The position numbers and the translations under genes are program-made. The notes under the pieces were generated by a model, which searched no databases, was not told where the DNA came from, and saw only the letters and a program-made list of their open reading frames with translations. From IMG/VR virus record IMGVR_UViG_3300023289_000030, positions 1 through 7,753 of that record: a stretch of 7,753 nt of DNA, one strand, 5' to 3'. This DNA comes from a virus. Lineage: Duplodnaviria > Heunggongvirae > Uroviricota > Caudoviricetes. This document shows, piece after piece, positions 313 to 7,753 of the stretch. How positions within the stretch are numbered: the stretch's first letter is position 1; the number at the start of each line of letters is the position of its first letter.

Positions 313-336
313 TGAAAAATTAATCTGTTAATGAGT

Positions 337-357
337 CCCACTCCGGTGGGATTTTTT
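337..357 (+). terminator. Short hairpin plus T-run, possible weak intrinsic terminator or attenuator between the upstream gene and the N-like gene
   Basis: cccac-tccg-gtggg (5-bp stem, 4-nt loop) at 337-350 followed by attttttat. The stem is short, so this is weak at best. Confidence 0.25.
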
Positions 358-372
358 ATGTACGGAGTTTAT

Positions 373-1701
373 ATGACGTGGAAAGACAGACTTCAGGACG
401 CGTCATTTCGAGGTGTGCCGTTTAAGGTTGAAGAAGAAAGTGCGGGAACCGGCCGTCGTGTGGAAACACACGAATATCCGAACCGCGACAAACCCTATAC
501 CGAAGATCTGGGAAAAGTCACTTTCCGCCCGTCCATCACAGCTTATGTGGTGGGAGATGACTGCTTTGACCAGCGCGATCGCCTGATTGAAGCGCTGAAT
601 AAACCCGGTCCCGGCACGCTTGTCCATCCGACTTACGGTGAGCTGAAAGTCTGTGTTGACGGGGAAGTTCGGGTCAGCACATCGAAAAGTGAAGGACGTA
701 TTGTCCGCTTTGACCTGAAGTTTGTCGAAGCGGGAGAACTCTCTTACCCCACATCAGGTGCGGCGACGGCGCAGACGCTGATGTCATCCTGTTCTGCACT
801 GGATGACTGCATCAGTGACAGTTTCAGTGGTTTCAGTATCGATGGCGTGGCAGATTTTGTGCAGAACGACGTCGTCGGTAATGCCGGCACAATGCTTGGG
901 TATATTTCTGATGCGATGAAAGTGGTGGATTCTGCCGTATCGGATGCCGCCAGGCTGTTGCAGGGGGATATCTCGGTACTTCTGCCGCCGCCATCGTCAG
1001 GCAAAAATTTCGTTGAGCAGGTGCAGAAAATGTGGCGTACCGGGAAACGCCTTTATGGTAACGCCAGCGACCTGGTCACCATGATCAAAACGCTTTCCGG
1101 TGTCAGCCTCGGCAGCGATCTGCAACCGCGCGGCGTCTGGAAAACGGACAGTAAAACCACCGCCACGGCGACGCAGCAGCGTAACGTGGTTGCCAGCACC
1201 CTTCGTACGACCGCAATCAGCGAAGCGGCGTATGCCGTCACCCGATTGCCTGCGCCAACAACTTCCGCGGTGATGCAGAATGCCGCAGTGGGGCAGGCAA
1301 CAACAGCTGCGCAGAGCACCGGCTGGCCTTCCGTCACGCATCCGGCATTGAACAATGCACCGGCGGTGAAAAACACGGTTGATCTGCCGACGTGGGAAGA
1401 ACTGACTGACATTCGCGACACACTGAATACGGCAATTGATAAGGAGTTGTCCCGTACAACCAGTGATGCGCTGTTTCTGGCGCTGCGCCGGGTGAAAGCA
1501 GATCTGAATGCGGATATCAACACGCGCCTTGAACAGTCTGCACGGATCATTCAGCGCACGCCGGATGAGGTTTTACCCGCGCTGGTGCTGGCGGCGACCT
1601 GGTTTGATAACGCGGCGCGTGACGCGGACATTATCCGGCGTAATGCCATTACGCATCCCGGCTTTGTGCCGGTGATCCCTCTGAAGGTGCCAGTGCAATG
1701 A
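373..1701 (+). CDS. DNA circularization protein (phage Mu N / gp43-like)
   Basis: Long ORF 331-1701. N-terminus MTWKDRLQDASFRGVPFKVEE matches the conserved start of Mu N-type proteins as I recall it. GGAG at 362-365 sits 7 nt before the ATG at 373, so I prefer 373 over the ATGs at 331 and 358. Stop overlaps the next start (ATGA at 1698-1701). Confidence 0.8.
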   Translation: MTWKDRLQDASFRGVPFKVEEESAGTGRRVETHEYPNRDKPYTEDLGKVTFRPSITAYVVGDDCFDQRDRLIEALNKPGPGTLVHPTYGELKVCVDGEVRVSTSKSEGRIVRFDLKFVEAGELSYPTSGAATAQTLMSSCSALDDCISDSFSGFSIDGVADFVQNDVVGNAGTMLGYISDAMKVVDSAVSDAARLLQGDISVLLPPPSSGKNFVEQVQKMWRTGKRLYGNASDLVTMIKTLSGVSLGSDLQPRGVWKTDSKTTATATQQRNVVASTLRTTAISEAAYAVTRLPAPTTSAVMQNAAVGQATTAAQSTGWPSVTHPALNNAPAVKNTVDLPTWEELTDIRDTLNTAIDKELSRTTSDALFLALRRVKADLNADINTRLEQSARIIQRTPDEVLPALVLAATWFDNAARDADIIRRNAITHPGFVPVIPLKVPVQ

Positions 1702-2777
1702 ACGATAACGTCACGCTACGGGTAAATGGCCGGGAGTGGAATGGCTGGACATCGGTGCGCATCGGTGCCGGTGTTGAACGACTGGCGCGGGATTTCAGTG
1801 TGGAGATCACCCGCCAGTGGCCGGGAGATGAGGGTATCACCACGCTTCAGCCGCGCATTAAAAATGGTTCAAAAGTGGAAGTGCTGATTGGTGATGAGCT
1901 GGTGATCACCGGCTGGGTGGAGGCGACCCCCGTTCATTACGATGCCCGTTCGGTCAGCACCGGTATTGCCGGACGTAGTCTGACTGCTGACCTGATTGAC
2001 TGTGCAGCCGAACCGACACAGTTTAACGGACGATCGCTGGTACAGATTGCGCAGGCGCTTGCTGCGCCTTTCGGCATTGAGGTGGTGAACAGCGATGCGC
2101 CGTCGGGTGTTATTCCGGATGTCCAGCCTGATCACGGTGAAACGGTGATCGAGGTGATCAACAAAATACTCGGTCAGCAGCAGGCGCTGGCTTATGACGA
2201 CCCGCACGGCAGGCTGGTGATTGGTGGTATTGGCTCAACGCGGGCACATACCGCGCTGGTACTTGGGGAAAACATCCTTTCCTGTGATACGGAGAAGAGT
2301 ATCCGGGAGCGGTTTTCAGTTTACCAGGTGGCGGGGCAGCGTGCCGGAAACGACGATGATTTCGGTGAGACCACCACCACCGCGCTGCGGGCCCGCACAG
2401 AGGACGCATTTATTGCCCGTTACCGTCCGATGTATATCAGGCAGACAGGGCAGGCCACGGGGGCAGGCTGTATTGCGCGTGCTGACTTTGAAGCCCGACA
2501 ACGGGCGGCGCGGACGGATGAAACCACCTATGTGGTGCAGGGCTGGCGACAGGGTAACGGTACGCTGTGGCAGCCCAACCAGCGGGTGATTGTCTTTGAT
2601 CCGGTCTGTGGTTTTGACAATACCGAACTGCTTGTTTCGGAAGTCACGTTTACTCAGGACCAGAACGGCACCCTGACGGAAATCCGTGTCGGCCCGCCTG
2701 ATGCTTATCTGCCTGAACCTGAAGACCCCGGCGCGCGGAAAAAGAAAAAAGCCAGAGTACAGGAGGACCCGTTCTGA
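1698..2777 (+). CDS. Baseplate hub / tail protein (Mu P / gp44-like, phage late control D family)
   Basis: 359-aa ORF translationally coupled to the N-like gene by an ATGA overlap. Size and position match the Mu-type hub protein. Family assignment is from recall. Confidence 0.75.
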   Translation: MNDNVTLRVNGREWNGWTSVRIGAGVERLARDFSVEITRQWPGDEGITTLQPRIKNGSKVEVLIGDELVITGWVEATPVHYDARSVSTGIAGRSLTADLIDCAAEPTQFNGRSLVQIAQALAAPFGIEVVNSDAPSGVIPDVQPDHGETVIEVINKILGQQQALAYDDPHGRLVIGGIGSTRAHTALVLGENILSCDTEKSIRERFSVYQVAGQRAGNDDDFGETTTTALRARTEDAFIARYRPMYIRQTGQATGAGCIARADFEARQRAARTDETTYVVQGWRQGNGTLWQPNQRVIVFDPVCGFDNTELLVSEVTFTQDQNGTLTEIRVGPPDAYLPEPEDPGARKKKKARVQEDPF

Positions 2778-3325
2778 TGAGGACGATTGAAGCCATGCAG
2801 CGACAACTTCTCGGCCTGATTGGGCGGGCAGTGGTGAAAAGCATCAGTGCCGCCACGAAATGTCAGACCGTGGATGTGTCCCTGATTGCCGGTGAACCCA
2901 AAGCCGGGGTTGAACATCTTGAACCCTACGGTTTTACCGCAAGGGCAAACAGCGGTGCGGAAGCGGTGGTGTTGTTTCCGGATGGCGACCGTTCTCATGC
3001 GGTGGTTGTTACGGTGTCGGACCGGCGCTACCGCCTGAAAGGGCTGCAGACGGGTGAGGTGGCTGTCTATGACGATCAGGGGCAGTCTGTGACGCTGACC
3101 CGGGAGGGGATCGTGGTGGACGGTGCAGGTAAAACGATCACGTTTCGCAATGCGCCCAGAGCACGTTTTGAAATGGACCTGGAAGTGACCGGACAGGTGA
3201 AAGACCTGTGCGACTCCGGCGGTACCACCATGTCAGCGATGCGGCTTGCCTATAACGGGCATCGTCACAGAGAGAACGGTCAGGGCAGTAACACCGACAA
3301 ACCTGATAAAGCGATGGAGGCATGA
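2777..3325 (+). CDS. Baseplate spike / assembly protein V-like (Mu gp45-like)
   Basis: 182-aa ORF. AGGAGG at 2761-2766 lies 10 nt before the ATG at 2777, which overlaps the upstream TGA by 1 nt. Size and position fit the small spike protein of Mu/P2-type baseplates. Confidence 0.7.
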   Translation: MRTIEAMQRQLLGLIGRAVVKSISAATKCQTVDVSLIAGEPKAGVEHLEPYGFTARANSGAEAVVLFPDGDRSHAVVVTVSDRRYRLKGLQTGEVAVYDDQGQSVTLTREGIVVDGAGKTITFRNAPRARFEMDLEVTGQVKDLCDSGGTTMSAMRLAYNGHRHRENGQGSNTDKPDKAMEA

Positions 3326-3750
3326 TGGAACTGTGGCTGACGGTGAACGGTAAACGCACCTGCGCCAGCGCACAGCTGGATCCGCTGACCCGCGCCGTGG
3401 TGATTTCCCTGTTTACCTGGCGGCGGGCGGAGCCTGATGACAACGCCGATGTCCCGATGGGATGGTGGGGGGATACCTGGCCTGCGGTACAGAATGACCG
3501 TTACGGCTCCCGACTGTGGCTGCTTCAGCGCAGCAAACTGACCAATCAGCTGGTGCAGACGGTAAGGGGGTATATCCGCGAATGCCTGCAATGGATGATT
3601 GATGACGGCGTGGTGTCCCGTATTGATCTGGATATCCGCCGCACCGGGATTAATGAACTGGGTAACAGTATCACTCTCTGGCGTCGTGACGGACCGGTAA
3701 TGATTTCTTTTGATGATCTGTGGAGTGCGATAACGCATGGCGGACAGTGA
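3322..3750 (+). CDS. Baseplate wedge protein, GP46 / gp25-like family (Mu gp46-like)
   Basis: 142-aa ORF. GGAGG precedes the ATG at 3322, which overlaps the upstream stop (ATGA). Size and position are typical of the gp25/W-like protein. Confidence 0.7.
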   Translation: MMELWLTVNGKRTCASAQLDPLTRAVVISLFTWRRAEPDDNADVPMGWWGDTWPAVQNDRYGSRLWLLQRSKLTNQLVQTVRGYIRECLQWMIDDGVVSRIDLDIRRTGINELGNSITLWRRDGPVMISFDDLWSAITHGGQ

Positions 3751-4795
3751 ATTTCAGCGCCCGACGCTGGCAGAAAATATCAGTATGCTCCGTAACGATT
3801 TATTCGCCAGGCTGGACGTCAGCGACACGCTCCGGCGCATGGATGAAGACGTGCGGGCAAAGGTGTATGCGGCGGCGCTGCATACGGTTTACGGTTACAT
3901 CGATTATCTGGCAATGAACATGCTGCCTGACCTGTGCGATGAGTCCTGGCTGGCGCGACATGCTGCGATGAAACGGTGTCCGCGCAAGGGGGCCACGGCT
4001 GCCAGCGGGGATATGCGCTGGGAAGGTGTCAGCGATGGCCTGAAGGTGACCGCCGGGAGTGTTATTCAGCGCGATGACCTGGTGCAGTACACGACAACTG
4101 ACGATGCAACCAGCTCCGGTGGTGTCCTGCGCGTGCCGATCGCCTGCTCAAGTGCAGGTGCGGTCGGTAACGCTGACGACGGTACGGCATTAATCCTGGT
4201 CACGCCGGTGAATGGTCTGCCGTCTTCCGGTGTGGCTGACACCCTTACAGGCGGATTTGATACTGAAGAGCTGGAAACGTGGCGCGCCCGCGTCATTGAG
4301 CGGTATTACTGGACGCCTCAGGGCGGGGCTGACGGGGACTATGTCGTCTGGGCTAAAGAAGTGCCCGGCATTACCCGCGCATGGACATACCGTCACTGGA
4401 TGGGAACGGGAACTGTCGGTGTGATGATTGCCAGCAGTGACCTGATTAATCCCATTCCGGAAGAATCAACGGAAACGGCAGCAAGACAACATATCGGGCC
4501 ACTGGCCCCGGTGGCAGGCTCTGATTTGTATGTATTCAGGCCGGTGGCACATACGGTGGATTTTCATATCCGTGTGACGCCGGATACACCGGAAATACGA
4601 GCCGCCATCACCGCGGAGTTGCGTTCGTTCCTGCTGCGTGATGGTTATCCGCAGGGAGAACTGAAGGTGTCACGTATCAGTGAAGCGATTTCCGGTGCGA
4701 ACGGGGAATACAGCCATCAGTTGCTTGCCCCGGCGGACAATATCTCCATTGCAAAAAATGAGCTGGCAGTTCTGGGGACGATTTCATGGACGTGA
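3737..4795 (+). CDS. Baseplate J-like wedge protein (Mu gp47 / P2 gpJ family)
   Basis: 352-aa ORF whose start overlaps the previous gene by 14 nt. Size and position fit the J family. Confidence 0.8.
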
Positions 4796-5370
4796 CAAAC
4801 GATGATTATATCCGTCTGTTGTCGGCACTGTTGCCGCCCGGTCCGGCGTGGTCAGTCAGCGATCCGGCGATTGCCGGTGCGGCACCGTCATTAACCCGCG
4901 TTCATCAGCGTGCGGATGCCCTGATGCGGGAGCTGGATCCGCGCACCACCACTGAACTGATAAACCGCTGGGAGCGTCTGTGCGGTCTGCCGGATGAATG
5001 TATTCCCGCAGGGACACAGACCCTTCGTCAGCGTCAGCAACGGCTGGATGCGAAGGTTAACCTGGCGGGCAGCATCAACGAGAATTTTTATCTTGCACAG
5101 CTTGCTGCCCTGGGCAGACCAGATGCCAACATCACGCGATACGACAAAAGCACGTTCACCTGCTCATCGGCCTGTACTGACGCGGTGAATGCGCCGGAAT
5201 GGCGGTATTACTGGCAGGTCAACATGCCAGCTGCCACCAACACCACCTGGATGACATGTGGCGATCCCTGTGATTCCGCACTGCGTATCTGGGGCGACAC
5301 CGTTGTCGAGTGTGTGCTTAACAAACTCTGCCCGTCGCATACCTACGTAATTTTTAAATATCCGGAGTAA
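4786..5370 (+). CDS. Baseplate wedge / tail protein, YmfQ-like (Mu gp48 / P2 gpI-like, DUF2313)
   Basis: 194-aa ORF overlapping the J-like gene by 10 nt. It sits directly before the tail-fibre gene, as gp48/YmfQ does in Mu and e14-type modules. Confidence 0.75.
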
Positions 5371-5373
5371 TCC

Positions 5374-6024
5374 ATGCATCGTATAGACACGAAAACCGCG
5401 CAGAAGGATAAGTTCGGCGCGGGTAAGAACGGTTTTACCCGTGGTAACCCCCAGACCGGCACGCCTGCCACCGATCTGGATGATGACTACTTTGACATGT
5501 TGCAGGAGGAGCTTTGCAGCGTGGTGGAGGCATCCGGTGCCAGCCTGGAGAAGGGGCGGCACGACCAGTTACTTACCGCACTTCGTGCGTTGCTGTTAAG
5601 CCGCAAGAATCCGTTTGGTGATATCAAATCGGACGGCACGGTGAAAACGGCTCTCGAAAACCTTGGTTTGGGAGAAGCGGCGAAAAGGGATGTGGGCACA
5701 GGAGAAAATCAGATACCGGATATGTCAGCCTGGAAAAGAAATCCGAGTTCTAATCGCTGGAGAAAATTGCCTGATGGAACCATCATTCAAATGGGAATAT
5801 CAGCATCAGGGCCATTAGGCTCACCTGTAAATATCACCCTGCCGATATCTTTCAGCAATACCAATTATTGTGTTGTTGCATCGTACGATAATGCACGGTC
5901 AGGTGTGTCAACAATGGTTAGTTTTGCAGCGTTACCTGTTTCACCATCGCAATTTTCCCTGATGTCATCTGTGACTGAGCAAGGAATAAATCCTTTTGCT
6001 TACTGGATTGCTTTTGGAGATTAA
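5374..6024 (+). CDS. Tail fibre protein: constant N-terminal part (to about 5664) plus variable C-terminal receptor-binding part in the current orientation (e14 StfP-like)
   Basis: 216-aa ORF with GGAG 7 nt before the ATG. N-terminus [33 protein letters not shown] is a typical conserved tail-fibre N-terminus. A crossover site lies inside the gene at 5651-5676, and base composition drops sharply after it. Confidence 0.85.
5651..5676. repeat. Left crossover site of the invertible segment (26 bp, hix/gix/pix-like), inside the tail-fibre gene
   Basis: ctctcgaaaacc-tt-ggtttgggagaa: two imperfect 12-bp half-sites around a 2-bp core. It matches the reverse complement of 7516-7541 at 23 of 26 positions and resembles hixL (TTCTTGAAAACCAAGGTTTTTGATAA) as recalled. 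Confidence 0.75.
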
Positions 6025-6027
6025 TAA

Positions 6028-6447
6028 ATGGATAGATACTTCTATTCACAAAAAGAAAATGGTTTTTTTACCGATTTAAATAAAGCACCTTCAGATGCTG
6101 TTGAGATAACCACGGATGAATGGCTGTTACTACTGGATGGTCAGGATAATGGCATGAAAATAGTCAGCAATCAGGAGGGATATCCGGTTTTGACAGAGCA
6201 ACCACCTTTATCAAAAGAAAACCTTATTGCATTGGCGGATTTGAAAAAAAGAAAACTTATTAATGAAGCCAACGAGCACATGAACAGCAGACAATGGCCA
6301 GGTAAAGCGGCGATTGGTCGCCTGAAAGGTGAGGAACTGGCACAATATAATTTATGGCTGGATTATCTGGACGCACTGGAACTGGTTGATCCCTCCAGTG
6401 CTCCAGATATTGAATGGCCTACGCCTCCGGCAGTTCAGGCCAGATGA
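6028..6447 (+). CDS. Tail fibre assembly chaperone (Tfa / Mu U-like), cognate to the currently expressed fibre C-terminus
   Basis: 139-aa ORF starting 3 nt after the fibre stop, with GGAG upstream. C-terminal motif LWLDYLDALELVDPSSAPDIEWPTPP is characteristic of tail fibre assembly proteins. Confidence 0.85.
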   Translation: MDRYFYSQKENGFFTDLNKAPSDAVEITTDEWLLLLDGQDNGMKIVSNQEGYPVLTEQPPLSKENLIALADLKKRKLINEANEHMNSRQWPGKAAIGRLKGEELAQYNLWLDYLDALELVDPSSAPDIEWPTPPAVQAR

Positions 6448-7024
6448 CATCCGGTGCGGTGCTGGTATCTGTTGCCGTCACCGCGTCAATGTAATCCAGC
6501 GCAGCGTTAAGTCGGGCGGTTTCTGCCTGCGTCAGATTCCGTCCGGCCTGTAATTTCAGTTGAATCAGACTGATAGAAGCCATTGCTGTATCAATCAGCG
6601 ACTGGCGCTGTGCTTCTGCTGCATCTACTACGGCGCTATGCTGTGCCTCGGTATCCGTCACCCATTTCTCACCATCCCATTTATCGTATGGCGTTAACGG
6701 GGCGATAGTGGTTGTATTTTCAGGGTAATCACCCGGAACTGTGATTTCTTTGGTATCTCCCGTTTCGGTACTATAGACAACTTCACCGCGATGGTCTGGC
6801 ACATATTCCCATGAATTTAAATCTACAGAGCGACAGATTGCATAACCAGCTTTATGTGTACCTGGTGCATCCAGACAGGAACATGCCGGGATACCGACGC
6901 CGACAGCGAGATATTCAGTTGATGTAGAAATATATTCCCGCGTTTCACCATCATAATTATAAACGGTAATATCTCCCACTTTTATGGCAATGAGTTCGCT
7001 ATTTAATACAGCTTTATTCATCAT
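6419..7024 (-). CDS. Alternative tail fibre assembly chaperone (Tfa', e14 TfaE-like), silent orientation
   Basis: 201-aa minus-strand ORF starting MMNKAVLNSELIAIKVGDITVYNYDGETREY, a typical Tfa N-terminus. Its C-terminus LDYIDAVTATDTSTAPDVIWPELP parallels the + strand chaperone. Its start overlaps the stop of the upstream minus-strand fibre segment (ATGA). Confidence 0.85.
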   Translation of the reverse strand: MMNKAVLNSELIAIKVGDITVYNYDGETREYISTSTEYLAVGVGIPACSCLDAPGTHKAGYAICRSVDLNSWEYVPDHRGEVVYSTETGDTKEITVPGDYPENTTTIAPLTPYDKWDGEKWVTDTEAQHSAVVDAAEAQRQSLIDTAMASISLIQLKLQAGRNLTQAETARLNAALDYIDAVTATDTSTAPDVIWPELPEA

Positions 7025-7541
7025 GCGGCCCTCACAATATAATTAAAAGCGATGTTACGAGGACGAGTTTCTGTACCTACATTTTCACTAATTTCACCAT
7101 AACGTTTAACACTACGAGAGCTAATAGCTCGTAGTGAGGAAGGCACCTTAAGACCGGGTTCGTCCGTTTTAACTATTCCCCCGTCACCGTATGTAGCCAG
7201 TATTCCTGGGTTTACGCCTTCCCGTGCACTTCCTGCGGCGAGTCCGTCCCCTGTCCATAATTCCATATAGTGTGCATGGTCCAAAATTGTGTGTGGCTGC
7301 CAATTAAGCAAAGTACGACCAGAATCAATCCCGCGACCGTCATCCCAGCCACGAATAAATTCACCGCGTAAATCAGGCAATTTATTGGTCGGGTAAGCCT
7401 TTGCCAGTTCCGGGTATTCTTCAGCAGAAAAAGCCGCACCATTGCATTTCAGCCAGCCTGTTGGCGGAGTGGCTGAAGGCCACGGAACAGGCACCCCAAC
7501 CGGTAATGCAGAGCCTTCTCCCAAACCAACGTTTTTGAGAA
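7021..7541 (-). CDS. Alternative tail fibre C-terminal variable segment (Sv', e14 StfE-like); promoterless and startless, expressed only after inversion fuses it to the constant fibre N-terminus
   Basis: Minus-strand frame open from the right crossover site to TGA at 7021. Contains WLKCNGAAFSAEEYPELAKAYP, a motif typical of tail-fibre C-terminal domains. No credible own start; the track's TTG at 7596 lies outside the invertible segment. Confidence 0.8.
7516..7541. repeat. Right crossover site of the invertible segment (26 bp, hix/gix/pix-like)
   Basis: ttctcccaaacc-aa-cgtttttgagaa. Inverted partner of 5651-5676 (23 of 26 positions; core AA here, TT at the left site). Lies 55 bp upstream of the invertase start. 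Confidence 0.75.
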
Positions 7542-7595
7542 TGACCATTCTGCTCACTAGTGGCATGCTTTCTGCTTTTTGCAGGGGATAAAACA

Positions 7596-7753
7596 ATGCT
7601 TATTGGTTATGTGAGAGTGTCAACAAATGACCAGAACACCGCATTACAGAGAAATGCGCTCGATAGCGCAGGATGTGAACTGATTTTTGAAGATAAGATA
7701 AGCGGAAAGACCTCGGAGAGGCCGGGGCTCAAAAAGGTACTCCGTATCTTGTC
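7596..7753 (+). CDS. pin: Serine DNA invertase, Gin/Pin/Hin/Cin family (5' partial, continues beyond window)
   Basis: N-terminus MLIGYVRVSTNDQNTALQRNALDSAGCELIFEDKISGKTSERPGLKK is near-identical in pattern to Gin/Pin N-termini as recalled, including the catalytic Ser in VRVSTNDQ. AGGGGA lies 7 nt before the ATG. The symbol pin is by analogy to e14; it could equally be annotated gin or cin. Confidence 0.9.
   Translation, partial: MLIGYVRVSTNDQNTALQRNALDSAGCELIFEDKISGKTSERPGLKKVLRIL

What the first reader, a model, noticed from the sequence alone, without database searches (positions are those of the whole stretch)
5651..7541. Complete Pin/Gin-type invertible tail-fibre switch with both alternative fibre and chaperone cassettes intact
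Two inverted 26-bp hix-like sites flank about 1.9 kb holding a fibre C-terminus plus chaperone on the + strand and an alternative pair on the - strand, with a serine invertase gene just outside. This is the architecture of the Mu G, P1 C and e14 P segments, so inversion should swap the receptor-binding tip and the host range. All four cassette reading frames are open, so both orientations look functional. It is a known class of system, not a new one, but the exact sites are called here from sequence alone.
Basis: partly seen in the sequence, partly recalled or inferred. Interest (0 to 1): 0.6.

Follow-up and report, generated by a model that had tools for sequence, protein, structure and literature searches.

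The report
Pin-type invertible phage tail-fibre switch
This is an ordinary, already well-known kind of phage DNA switch (the e14 "P segment" type) that flips a 1.9-kb piece to swap the tip of a tail fibre, and public genomes carry the very same element in both orientations.

Summary
Two 26-bp crossover sites lie at 5651-5676 and 7516-7541, in inverted orientation, with matching TT/AA central dinucleotides. They flank two convergent "fibre tip + chaperone" cassettes. A serine invertase gene starts at 7596.

The fibre gene (5374-6024) crosses the left site. Flipping the segment in silico keeps the frame and gives a 265-aa fibre with a different (Collar-domain) tip.

The left site is identical to the K-12 e14 pix site, and the right site matches it at 24 of 26 positions.

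Two public assemblies carry this same element (one of them with 1 mismatch in 6.8 kb). In both, 5678-7514 is the exact reverse complement and the compared flanks are identical. The breakpoints fall inside the shared half-site plus core. In those assemblies the invertase is full length (186 aa, 88% identical to PinE).

A pair of Fis-like motifs 48 bp apart sits in the invertase 5' end, where P1 cin has its annotated enhancer.

Verdict: a functional-looking member of the Hin/Gin/Cin/Pin family and an allele of the e14-type P segment. It is already known, so interest is low. The host-range effect is inferred, not shown.

The parts
5374..6024 (+). Tail-fibre gene as currently assembled (216 aa): constant N-terminal part fused to the (+) tip
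   Evidence: ORF list. Pfam Gp53-like_C on residues 131-215. This exact protein is on record in 2098 blocks of the public collection.
5374..5664 (+). Constant part of the fibre gene, outside the switch, up to the crossover core (97 codons)
   Evidence: 97.6% DNA and 99% protein identity to K-12 ycfK/stfP over the same stretch. Unchanged between the two orientations in L027/L028.
5651..5676 (.). Left 26-bp crossover site CTCTCGAAAACC-TT-GGTTTGGGAGAA, core TT at 5663-5664, inside the fibre reading frame (codons E-N-L-G-L-G-E)
   Evidence: Identical to the K-12 e14 site at L002 4779.
5665..7527 (.). Invertible segment between the two core dinucleotides (1863 bp)
   Evidence: In L027 and L028, 5678-7514 is the exact reverse complement. 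The largest exact reverse-complement stretch is 5663-7529. Stand-alone 1867-bp contigs L034/L035 map to 5663-7529.
5665..6024 (+). (+) variable fibre tip, currently expressed
   Evidence: Pfam Gp53-like_C. No tblastn hit at E<=1e-3 to K-12 e14 (including the StfP tip), Mu G or P1 C.
6028..6447 (+). (+) tail-fibre assembly chaperone (139 aa)
   Evidence: Pfam Caudo_TAP, E=3.5e-25. The exact protein is found in e14-like and P2-like prophages.
6419..7024 (-). (-) tail-fibre assembly chaperone (200 or 201 aa; ATG at 7021 or 7024). Its 3' end overlaps the (+) chaperone gene by 29 bp.
   Evidence: Pfam Caudo_TAP, E=2.3e-31. 89.5% identical to K-12 TfaE. The 200-aa form is on record.
7021..7527 (-). 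(-) variable fibre tip, silent in this orientation. After inversion it is joined in frame to the constant part, giving a 265-aa fibre.
   Evidence: Pfam Collar, E=1.5e-15. In-silico flip keeps the frame. A 265-aa Collar fibre is called in the flipped relatives L016, L027, L028 and L031.
7516..7541 (.). Right 26-bp crossover site TTCTCCCAAACC-AA-CGTTTTTGAGAA, core AA at 7528-7529
   Evidence: 24/26 identical to the K-12 e14 site at L002 6606; both differences are in the outer half-site.
7542..7595 (.). Spacer between the right site and the invertase start. On the minus strand it supplies start codons (ATG 7566, TTG 7596) that extend the silent tip ORF.
   Evidence: ORF 7021..7596 (-). Sequence. 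No consensus promoter found.
7596..7753 (+). 5' end of the serine DNA invertase gene (52 codons; cut by the window end)
   Evidence: Translation MLIGYVRVSTNDQ... with R7, S9, R42, K46, K47, R50. 7530-7753 is 100% identical to E. coli strains 1500 and FEX669, where the gene is 561 bp. It is full length, 186 aa, in L027/L028.
7618..7680 (+). Candidate recombinational enhancer: two Fis-like 15-mers (7618-7632 and 7666-7680), centres 48 bp apart
   Evidence: This is the only match of the paired motif in the window. The same two positions match in pinE, gin and cin. It lies inside the homologue of the annotated P1 cin enhancer, cin nt 19-90.

Best explanation
This is a two-site DNA inversion switch of the Hin/Gin/Cin/Pin type and an allele of the e14 'P segment'. 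It sits at the end of the tail module of a prophage with a Mu-like baseplate.

Proposed mechanism:
- The tail-fibre gene starts outside the segment (5374) and crosses the left site.
- The adjacent serine invertase binds the two 26-bp sites. With Fis bound to an enhancer in its own 5' coding region, it makes 2-bp staggered cuts at the TT/AA cores, rotates the half-sites and religates, which inverts 5665-7527.
- In the orientation in the window, the constant 97 codons are fused to a Gp53-like tip, followed by its own chaperone.
- In the other orientation, the constant part is fused in frame to a Collar-domain tip, followed by the other chaperone.
- Only the cassette joined to the constant 5' part is read from the late tail operon. 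A lysogen population would therefore release two kinds of virions with different receptor-binding tips.

Shown here: the sites, the frames, the domains, the invertase N-terminus with its catalytic and enhancer-contact residues, and the existence of the same element in both orientations with breakpoints inside the sites.

Inferred: catalysis by this particular invertase, dependence on Fis, expression logic, and a change of host range.
For: Sites and chance:
- The inverted repeat and its 12+2+12 register, with matching cores.
- Expected number by chance is 2e-5.
- The core motif is found only at these two places.

Coding content:
- ORFs and Pfam domains.
- The in-silico flip gives an in-frame 265-aa fibre.

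Orthology to e14:
- Identical left pix site and 24/26 at the right site.
- 97-99% identical constant fibre part and ymfQ.
- 89.5% identical TfaE.

Natural inversion:
- L027 matches the flipped window at 99.985% over 6813 bp.
- In L027 and L028 the compared flanks (5000-5677 and 7515-7753) are identical, 5678-7514 is the exact reverse complement, and the largest such stretch is 5663-7529, core to core.
- CX07 and CX15 show the same at the homologous locus: an 1810-bp exact reverse complement between identical flanks.
- Among complete E. coli genomes, 9 match the window orientation and 22 the flipped orientation at >=80% cover.

Invertase:
- Complete at 186 aa in L022, L023, L027 and L028.
- 88% identical to PinE, 83% to Cin and 75% to Gin.
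- Matches the Gin crystal structures 3UJ3/4M6F at E=8e-89.
- Resolvase + HTH_7 domains.
- The residues that PMC3798978 gives as specific to Fis-dependent invertases are present: K46, K47, R50, Q150, R153, L154.

Enhancer: paired Fis-like motif at 7618-7680, inside the homologue of the annotated cin enhancer.

Literature: inversion of the K-12 e14 P segment has been shown by sequencing, PCR and qPCR (PMC4272514; PMC12529663).
Against: - The window holds only 52 of about 186 invertase codons, so the gene's integrity in the source genome is not seen.
- There are no reads from the source strain, so switching there is not shown.
- The orientation counts include clonal sets and are not independent.
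- The paired Fis motif is weak on its own: 0.40 expected per window, and 65 of 200 shuffles have one. It also lies in a conserved coding stretch, so conservation does not prove enhancer function.
- No consensus sigma-70 promoter was found for the invertase.
- The receptors of the two tips are unknown.
- Relatives exist in which the neighbouring invertase has decayed.
Confidence: 0.9

Rival explanations
1. The switch serves the lysogen mainly as a phage-defence toggle rather than a host-range switch. The minus-strand start codons next to the invertase (7566/7596) would let whichever tip lies at the right end be made as a free protein. That protein would mask a surface receptor, as reported for the StfE2 chimera of K-12 e14.
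For: - PMC12529663 reports that inversion of the e14 P segment creates StfE2 (stfE start + stfP tip), which blocks T2 adsorption.
- The window has the equivalent stub ORF on the minus strand, 7021..7596.
- Gene callers find a 126-133 aa Gp53-like_C ORF at that place in flipped relatives.
Against: - Unlike defective e14, this element has a complete Mu-like baseplate and tail module, so virion production, and thus host-range switching, is plausible.
- No promoter was found reading leftwards from 7596.
- An open stub of about 18 codons is expected by chance roughly 40% of the time (my estimate).
- The (+) tip is unrelated to the K-12 StfP tip, so the T2 result does not transfer.
Confidence: 0.12
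2. The switch is a frozen relic in the source genome. The sites and cassettes are intact, but the invertase is broken beyond the window end, so the segment no longer flips.
For: - Only 158 nt of the invertase gene are visible.
- Related P2-like prophages carry a frameshifted or truncated invertase next to the same cassettes (CH425; L017/L018).
Against: - The 224 nt at 7530-7753 are 100% identical to strains in which the gene is complete.
- The near-identical elements L027/L028 carry a full 186-aa gene and are in the other orientation.
- Elements with a decayed invertase still occur in both orientations.
- Pin-type enzymes act in trans (PMC12529663).
Confidence: 0.06
3. The opposite orientations seen in public assemblies are assembly artefacts, not biology.
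For: Short-read assemblers can break at inverted repeats. The segment appears as a stand-alone 1867-bp contig in two Logan assemblies.
Against: - The perfect repeat is only 15 bp, shorter than usual k-mers, so a mis-join is unlikely.
- Records deposited as complete genomes (CX07/CX15; strains 1500 and FEX669) show both states.
- Breakpoints fall exactly at the core-proximal half-site every time.
- Inversion at the K-12 homologue has been confirmed by PCR and qPCR.
Confidence: 0.02

Closest known systems
e14 P segment with PinE (E. coli K-12 cryptic prophage e14: ycfK/stfP, tfaP, tfaE, stfE, pinE)
   Same: - Same gene order and strands, including the 29-bp convergent overlap of the two chaperone genes.
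- Left site identical and right site 24/26.
- ymfQ 96.8% identical and the constant fibre part 97.6% identical in DNA.
- TfaE 89.5% identical in protein.
- Invertase 88% identical.
   Different: - The (+) tip has no detectable similarity to the K-12 StfP tip, and the (+) chaperone is only 51% identical.
- The C-terminal half of the (-) tip diverges, about 60-70% identity overall.
- The tail/baseplate module here is complete, whereas in e14 it is deleted or pseudogenised.
- Near-identical relatives lie next to ssrA/smpB, not in icd.
Phage Mu G segment with Gin
   Same: - Fibre gene split by the site into a constant and a variable part.
- Two tip + chaperone cassettes facing each other.
- Invertase just outside, on the side of the silent cassette.
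- 26-bp sites with the AAACC-NN-GGTTT centre.
- Invertase 75% identical.
- Mu-type baseplate genes upstream (gp44-48 homologues).
   Different: - The G segment is about 3 kb, against 1.86 kb here.
- The core dinucleotide is TC/GA rather than TT/AA.
- The cassette proteins show no similarity at E<=1e-3.
- The fibre here is much shorter: 216/265 aa against 504 aa (1515 nt) for Mu S.
Phage P1 C segment with Cin
   Same: - TT/AA core, as in cixL/cixR.
- Invertase 83% identical.
- The annotated enhancer at cin nt 19-90 aligns to 7614-7685 with 57/72 identity and the same two Fis-like motifs.
   Different: - The C segment is 4.2 kb.
- cin lies on the opposite side relative to the constant part.
- The cassettes are unrelated.
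Salmonella Hin / H segment
   Same: Same enzyme family, 26-bp sites and Fis-bound enhancer inside the recombinase gene (PMC3798978).
   Different: Hin flips a promoter together with hin itself to switch flagellin, not a fibre tip. The hix sequences were recalled from memory only and were not compared with a record here.
Min system of plasmid p15B and other multi-site inversion systems (shufflons)
   Same: Fibre-tip variation by site-specific inversion.
   Different: Those systems use several crossover sites and many cassettes (from established knowledge). Here only two sites exist at up to 1 mismatch to the core motif.

Membership tests
Fis/enhancer-dependent DNA invertase systems (Hin/Gin/Cin/Pin) | Small serine recombinase: N-terminal catalytic domain with a serine nucleophile at position 9/10, and a C-terminal helix-turn-helix | tested here: met
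   The window encodes residues 1-52 with R7, S9 and R42. The near-identical elements L027/L028 give the full 186 aa, with Resolvase + HTH_7 domains. It matches the Gin structures at E=8e-89. The C-terminal two thirds are not in the window itself.
Fis/enhancer-dependent DNA invertase systems (Hin/Gin/Cin/Pin) | Two 26-bp imperfectly palindromic crossover sites in inverted orientation with the same central dinucleotide | tested here: met
   Sites at 5651-5676 and 7516-7541, with core TT on the + strand at the left and TT on the - strand at the right. The centre AAACC-NN-GGTTT is shared with the gix and cix sites read from the Mu and P1 records.
Fis/enhancer-dependent DNA invertase systems (Hin/Gin/Cin/Pin) | Cis-acting recombinational enhancer with two Fis sites about 48 bp apart, located in the 5' part of the invertase gene | tested here: inconclusive
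   A paired degenerate Fis motif with centres 48 bp apart occurs once, at 7618-7680. It lies within the homologue of the annotated P1 enhancer and at the same positions as in pinE, gin and cin. The motif consensus is from memory (Hubner and Arber 1989). The match is weak statistically and is confounded by coding conservation.
Fis/enhancer-dependent DNA invertase systems (Hin/Gin/Cin/Pin) | Residues that contact Fis/enhancer and are conserved only in invertases (Hin 47, 48, 51 basic; Hin Q151, R154, L155; PMC3798978) | tested here: met
   K46, K47 and R50 are encoded in the window. Q150, R153 and L154 are present in the full-length protein of L027. Numbering is shifted by one relative to Hin.
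Fis/enhancer-dependent DNA invertase systems (Hin/Gin/Cin/Pin) | The segment actually inverts by exchange at the site cores | tested here: met
   This is comparative, not experimental. The same element is found flipped in L027/L028, with the largest exact reverse-complement stretch running core to core, 5663-7529. CX07 and CX15 show the same. Inversion in the source strain itself was not testable.
Invertible tail-fibre segments (Mu G, P1 C, e14 P) | A fibre gene with a constant 5' part outside and alternative 3' parts inside, each followed by its own assembly chaperone, in frame in both orientations | tested here: met
   ORFs. Domains Gp53-like_C, Collar and 2x Caudo_TAP. The in-silico flip is in frame, 265 aa. 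Both fibre forms are called as genes in relatives.
e14 P segment of E. coli K-12 specifically | Same sites, same flanking genes and same four cassettes | tested here: inconclusive
   The sites (identical, and 24/26), ymfQ, the constant fibre part and the tfaE-like chaperone match at 89-99%. The (+) tip is unrelated and the (+) chaperone is 51% identical. It is therefore an allele of the locus, not the same cassette set.
e14 P segment of E. coli K-12 specifically | Carried by the defective prophage e14 integrated in icd | tested here: not met
   The window holds intact Mu-like baseplate genes that e14 lacks. The closest relatives (L022, L023, L027, L028) end next to ssrA/smpB. The attachment site of the source element is outside the window.
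Multi-site inversion systems (p15B Min, shufflons) | More than two crossover sites, giving several rearrangements | tested here: not met
   Only two matches to the core motif at up to 1 mismatch. At 2 mismatches the extra hits are at the chance level: 6 found, 3.3 expected.

The most novel reading that the evidence does not exclude
The invertase-proximal stub (start codons at 7566/7596 on the minus strand) may express the 'silent' tip and its chaperone as a free protein. The switch would then toggle a receptor-masking defence of the lysogen as well as virion host range. This would generalise the StfE2 effect reported for K-12 e14 to intact prophages with other tips.
Probability: 0.12. Interest if true: 0.4.

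Novelty: already known. Interest (0 to 1): 0.15.

Why it matters
It matters little beyond correct annotation. The locus is a textbook serine-invertase fibre switch and an allele of the e14 P segment, whose inversion has been shown experimentally.

Three things are of practical use:
- Annotators should join the constant part to either tip rather than calling the silent tip a pseudogene or "hypothetical protein".
- Assemblies of this prophage will differ in orientation and may break at 5663 and 7529.
- The two tips (Gp53-like and Collar type) are candidates for host-range engineering, and the same cassettes are shared between e14-like and P2-like prophages.

Tried and rejected
- An exact 53-nt pattern across the right site and spacer found nothing in genome contigs, so the source genome was not identified that way.
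- The exact-protein look-up of the 201-aa form of the (-) chaperone failed. The 200-aa form worked and led to L027/L028.
- Plasterk and van de Putte 1985 (PMC554175) is not held, so the published pix sites were taken from the K-12 record and from PMC12529663 instead.
- hix sequences were not found in the paper searched. hix was therefore not compared, and what I state about hix is from memory.
- The promoter scan found no consensus promoter for the invertase or for the minus-strand stub.
- A third crossover site (multi-inversion system) was looked for and not found.
- The cassette proteins were compared with Mu G and P1 C and showed no similarity at E<=1e-3. The payload is not a Mu/P1 derivative, although the machinery is homologous.
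- NCBIfam has no specific model that names this invertase. It gave only sub-threshold hits to other serine recombinases.
- Structure prediction was judged unnecessary, given the Pfam and PDB sequence matches.
Full report
**Observation**

The window's best inverted repeat by far is 5652-5677 / 7515-7540: 26 nt, 92% complementary, arms 1837 nt apart. With the window's base composition, only 2e-5 pairs with at least 24/26 complementary positions are expected. Fifteen shuffles gave at most 22/26.

Read in the 12+2+12 register of serine-invertase sites, the two sites are 5651-5676 (CTCTCGAAAACC-TT-GGTTTGGGAGAA) and 7516-7541 (TTCTCCCAAACC-AA-CGTTTTTGAGAA). The central dinucleotides are TT on the + strand at the left and TT on the - strand at the right, which is what inversion needs. 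The centre AAACC-NN-GGTTT, taken from the gix and cix sites that I read out of the Mu and P1 records, occurs with up to 1 mismatch only at these two places (0.18 expected). Allowing 2 mismatches adds only chance-level hits. This is therefore a two-site switch, not a multi-site one.

**Anatomy**

Upstream lies a complete Mu-type baseplate module: DNA_circ_N, gp44/P, gp45, gp46, Baseplate_J and gp48/YmfQ.

The fibre gene (5374-6024, 216 aa) follows ymfQ after 3 nt and crosses the left site. The site encodes E-N-L-G-L-G-E, and the core is the last two bases of the Leu codon.

Inside the segment, in order:
- a Gp53-like_C tip, to 6024 (+)
- a Caudo_TAP chaperone, 6028-6447 (+)
- a second Caudo_TAP chaperone, 6419-7021/7024 (-), whose 3' end overlaps the first by 29 bp
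- a Collar-domain tip, 7021-7527 (-)

On the minus strand the right site is read in the same frame (N-V-G-L-G-E). Flipping 5665-7527 in silico therefore yields an in-frame 265-aa fibre ending in the Collar tip.

The invertase gene starts at 7596. Its 52 visible codons, MLIGYVRVSTNDQ..., carry R7, the S9 nucleophile, R42, and the basic K46/K47/R50.

**Relation to known loci**

In E. coli K-12 the same arrangement is annotated as ymfQ, ycfK (StfP), tfaP, tfaE, stfE, pinE of cryptic prophage e14.

| Feature | Similarity to K-12 e14 |
|---|---|
| Left site | identical |
| Right site | 24/26; both differences in the outer half-site |
| ymfQ | 96.8% (DNA) |
| Constant fibre part | 97.6% (DNA), 99% (protein) |
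| TfaE-like chaperone | 89.5% (protein) |
| (+) chaperone | 51% (protein) |
| (+) tip | no detectable similarity |
| (-) tip | diverges in its C-terminal half |

None of the four cassette proteins resembles the Mu G or P1 C cassettes at E<=1e-3. The machinery is homologous to Mu and P1, but the payload is not.

**Is the invertase complete?**

This cannot be read from the window. However, 7530-7753 is 100% identical to two complete E. coli genomes, strains 1500 and FEX669, in which the gene is 561 bp. The near-identical elements L027 and L028 encode a 186-aa protein with these properties:
- 88% identical to PinE, 83% to Cin and 75% to Gin
- Resolvase + HTH_7 domains
- a match to the Gin crystal structures at E=8e-89
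- the Q-x-x-R-L patch that PMC3798978 describes as specific to Fis-dependent invertases

**Does it flip?**

L027 (GCA_021702355.1) matches the in-silico flipped window at 99.985% over 6813 bp. In L027, and in the independent assembly L028 (GCA_040038045.1), the compared flanks (5000-5677 and 7515-7753) are identical to the window and 5678-7514 is the exact reverse complement. The largest exact reverse-complement stretch is 5663-7529, that is, from core to core.

At the homologous locus of a 92%-identical prophage, the near-clonal complete genomes CX07 and CX15 have the same length and the same coordinates. Within the 5.7-kb loci compared they differ only by an exact 1810-bp inversion, and the breakpoint interval starts at the TT core.

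Among complete E. coli genomes, 9 match the window orientation and 22 the flipped orientation at >=80% cover. These counts include clonal sets.

Two Logan assemblies hold the segment as a stand-alone 1867-bp contig that maps exactly to 5663-7529. This is what a de Bruijn graph gives when both junction types are present, or when two copies sit in different contexts.

In the literature, inversion of the K-12 P segment has been shown by paired-end mapping and PCR (PMC4272514) and by qPCR. That qPCR work names the inverted repeats TTGGTTTGGGAGAAGG / CCTTCTCCCAAACCAA and finds inverted copies in 33% of 562 genomes (PMC12529663).

**Enhancer**

The P1 record annotates the Cin enhancer at cin nt 19-90. 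The homologous stretch here (7614-7685) is 57/72 identical. It contains the window's only match to two degenerate Fis motifs (KNNYRNNWNNYRNNM; the consensus is recalled from memory) with centres 48 bp apart, at 7618-7632 and 7666-7680. The same two positions match in pinE, gin and cin.

The first motif centre is about 96 bp from the right core. This is close to the 99-bp hix-to-enhancer spacing given for Hin, although the reference points of that figure may differ.

This evidence is consistent with an enhancer but weak. The motif pair is expected 0.4 times per window, and the stretch encodes a conserved peptide.

**Mechanism**

With high confidence, the segment is inverted by a Pin-type serine invertase through 2-bp staggered cuts at the TT/AA cores. 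This fuses the constant 97 codons to one or the other tip, and the matching chaperone follows in the same transcript. The other pair is silent because it lacks the 5' part and the late promoter.

The expected consequence is two virion types with different receptor specificity. That rests on analogy with Mu and P1 and was not tested.

**Rivals**

- *Defence role for the lysogen.* A free tip made from the minus-strand stub ORF (7566/7596) could mask a receptor, as reported for StfE2 in K-12 (PMC12529663). This is possible but unsupported here. No promoter was found, the (+) tip is unrelated to StfP, and the tail module looks intact.
- *Frozen relic.* This is unlikely, given the full-length invertase and the opposite orientation in near-identical elements.
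- *Assembly artefact.* This is unlikely, given records deposited as complete genomes in both states, a perfect repeat of only 15 bp, and breakpoints that always fall at the core-proximal half-site.

**Side observations**

- The same cassette set, with a 100% identical (+) chaperone, also sits in P2-like prophages behind a different fibre N-terminus. Homology to the window begins at 5657, inside the left site.
- In some of those P2-like prophages the neighbouring invertase is a broken remnant. Even so, L017 and L018 have 100% identical 4.9-kb flanks and opposite orientations. A truncated cis invertase would therefore not by itself refute switching.

**Verdict**

This is an allele of a long-known system: the e14-type P segment of the Hin/Gin/Cin/Pin family. 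Novelty: already known. Interest is low.

Noticed in passing
window 5657-7753; loci L005, L014-L020, L026, L029: The same invertible cassette set, with an identical 139-aa (+) chaperone, occurs in P2-like prophages behind a different, longer fibre N-terminus. Homology to the window starts at 5657, inside the left crossover site. This suggests the cassettes are exchanged as a module between unrelated tail types, with a boundary at the site.
   Followed up: partly
L017 vs L018 (and L005, E. coli CH425): A P2-like prophage has 100% identical 4933-bp flanks on both sides and the middle 1873 bp inverted, although the adjacent invertase is a frameshifted or truncated remnant. Either inversion happened in trans through another invertase, or it preceded the decay.
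   Followed up: partly
L034, L035 (Logan contigs), = window 5663-7529: Two public short-read assemblies contain the segment as a stand-alone 1867-bp contig whose ends are exactly the two core dinucleotides. This is the expected assembly-graph signature of both orientations (or two contexts) in one sample.
   Followed up: partly
window 6419-7024: The two chaperone genes converge and overlap by 29 bp at their 3' ends (6419-6447), exactly as tfaP/tfaE do in K-12. At 7021-7024 the stop of the (-) tip overlaps the chaperone start (ATGA/TGATG), which suggests translational coupling.
   Followed up: no
window 7542-7596, minus strand: The silent-tip ORF stays open past the right site to ATG 7566 and TTG 7596, next to the invertase start. 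K-12 stfE has a similar start (MMPF... against MPLV...). This is the part that forms the StfE2 chimera reported to block T2 adsorption.
   Followed up: partly
window 5665-6024: The currently expressed tip (Gp53-like_C) has no detectable similarity to the K-12 StfP tip, even though the flanking constant part is 99% identical. The full 216-aa fibre is nonetheless very common in public data (2098 blocks).
   Followed up: partly
window 331-5370; loci L022, L023, L027, L028: The window's left 5.3 kb is a complete Mu-like baseplate module (gpN/DNA_circ_N, gp44-48 homologues), which is missing or pseudogenised in K-12 e14. In the closest relatives the prophage ends (invertase, DinI, three to four small ORFs) next to ssrA/smpB rather than in icd.
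   Followed up: partly
L027 2771 and L028 5497-6616, relative to window 941: The near-identical relatives differ from the window upstream of about 941, and L028 does so across the baseplate genes. The tail modules of these prophages are therefore mosaic or partly deleted in some hosts.
   Followed up: no
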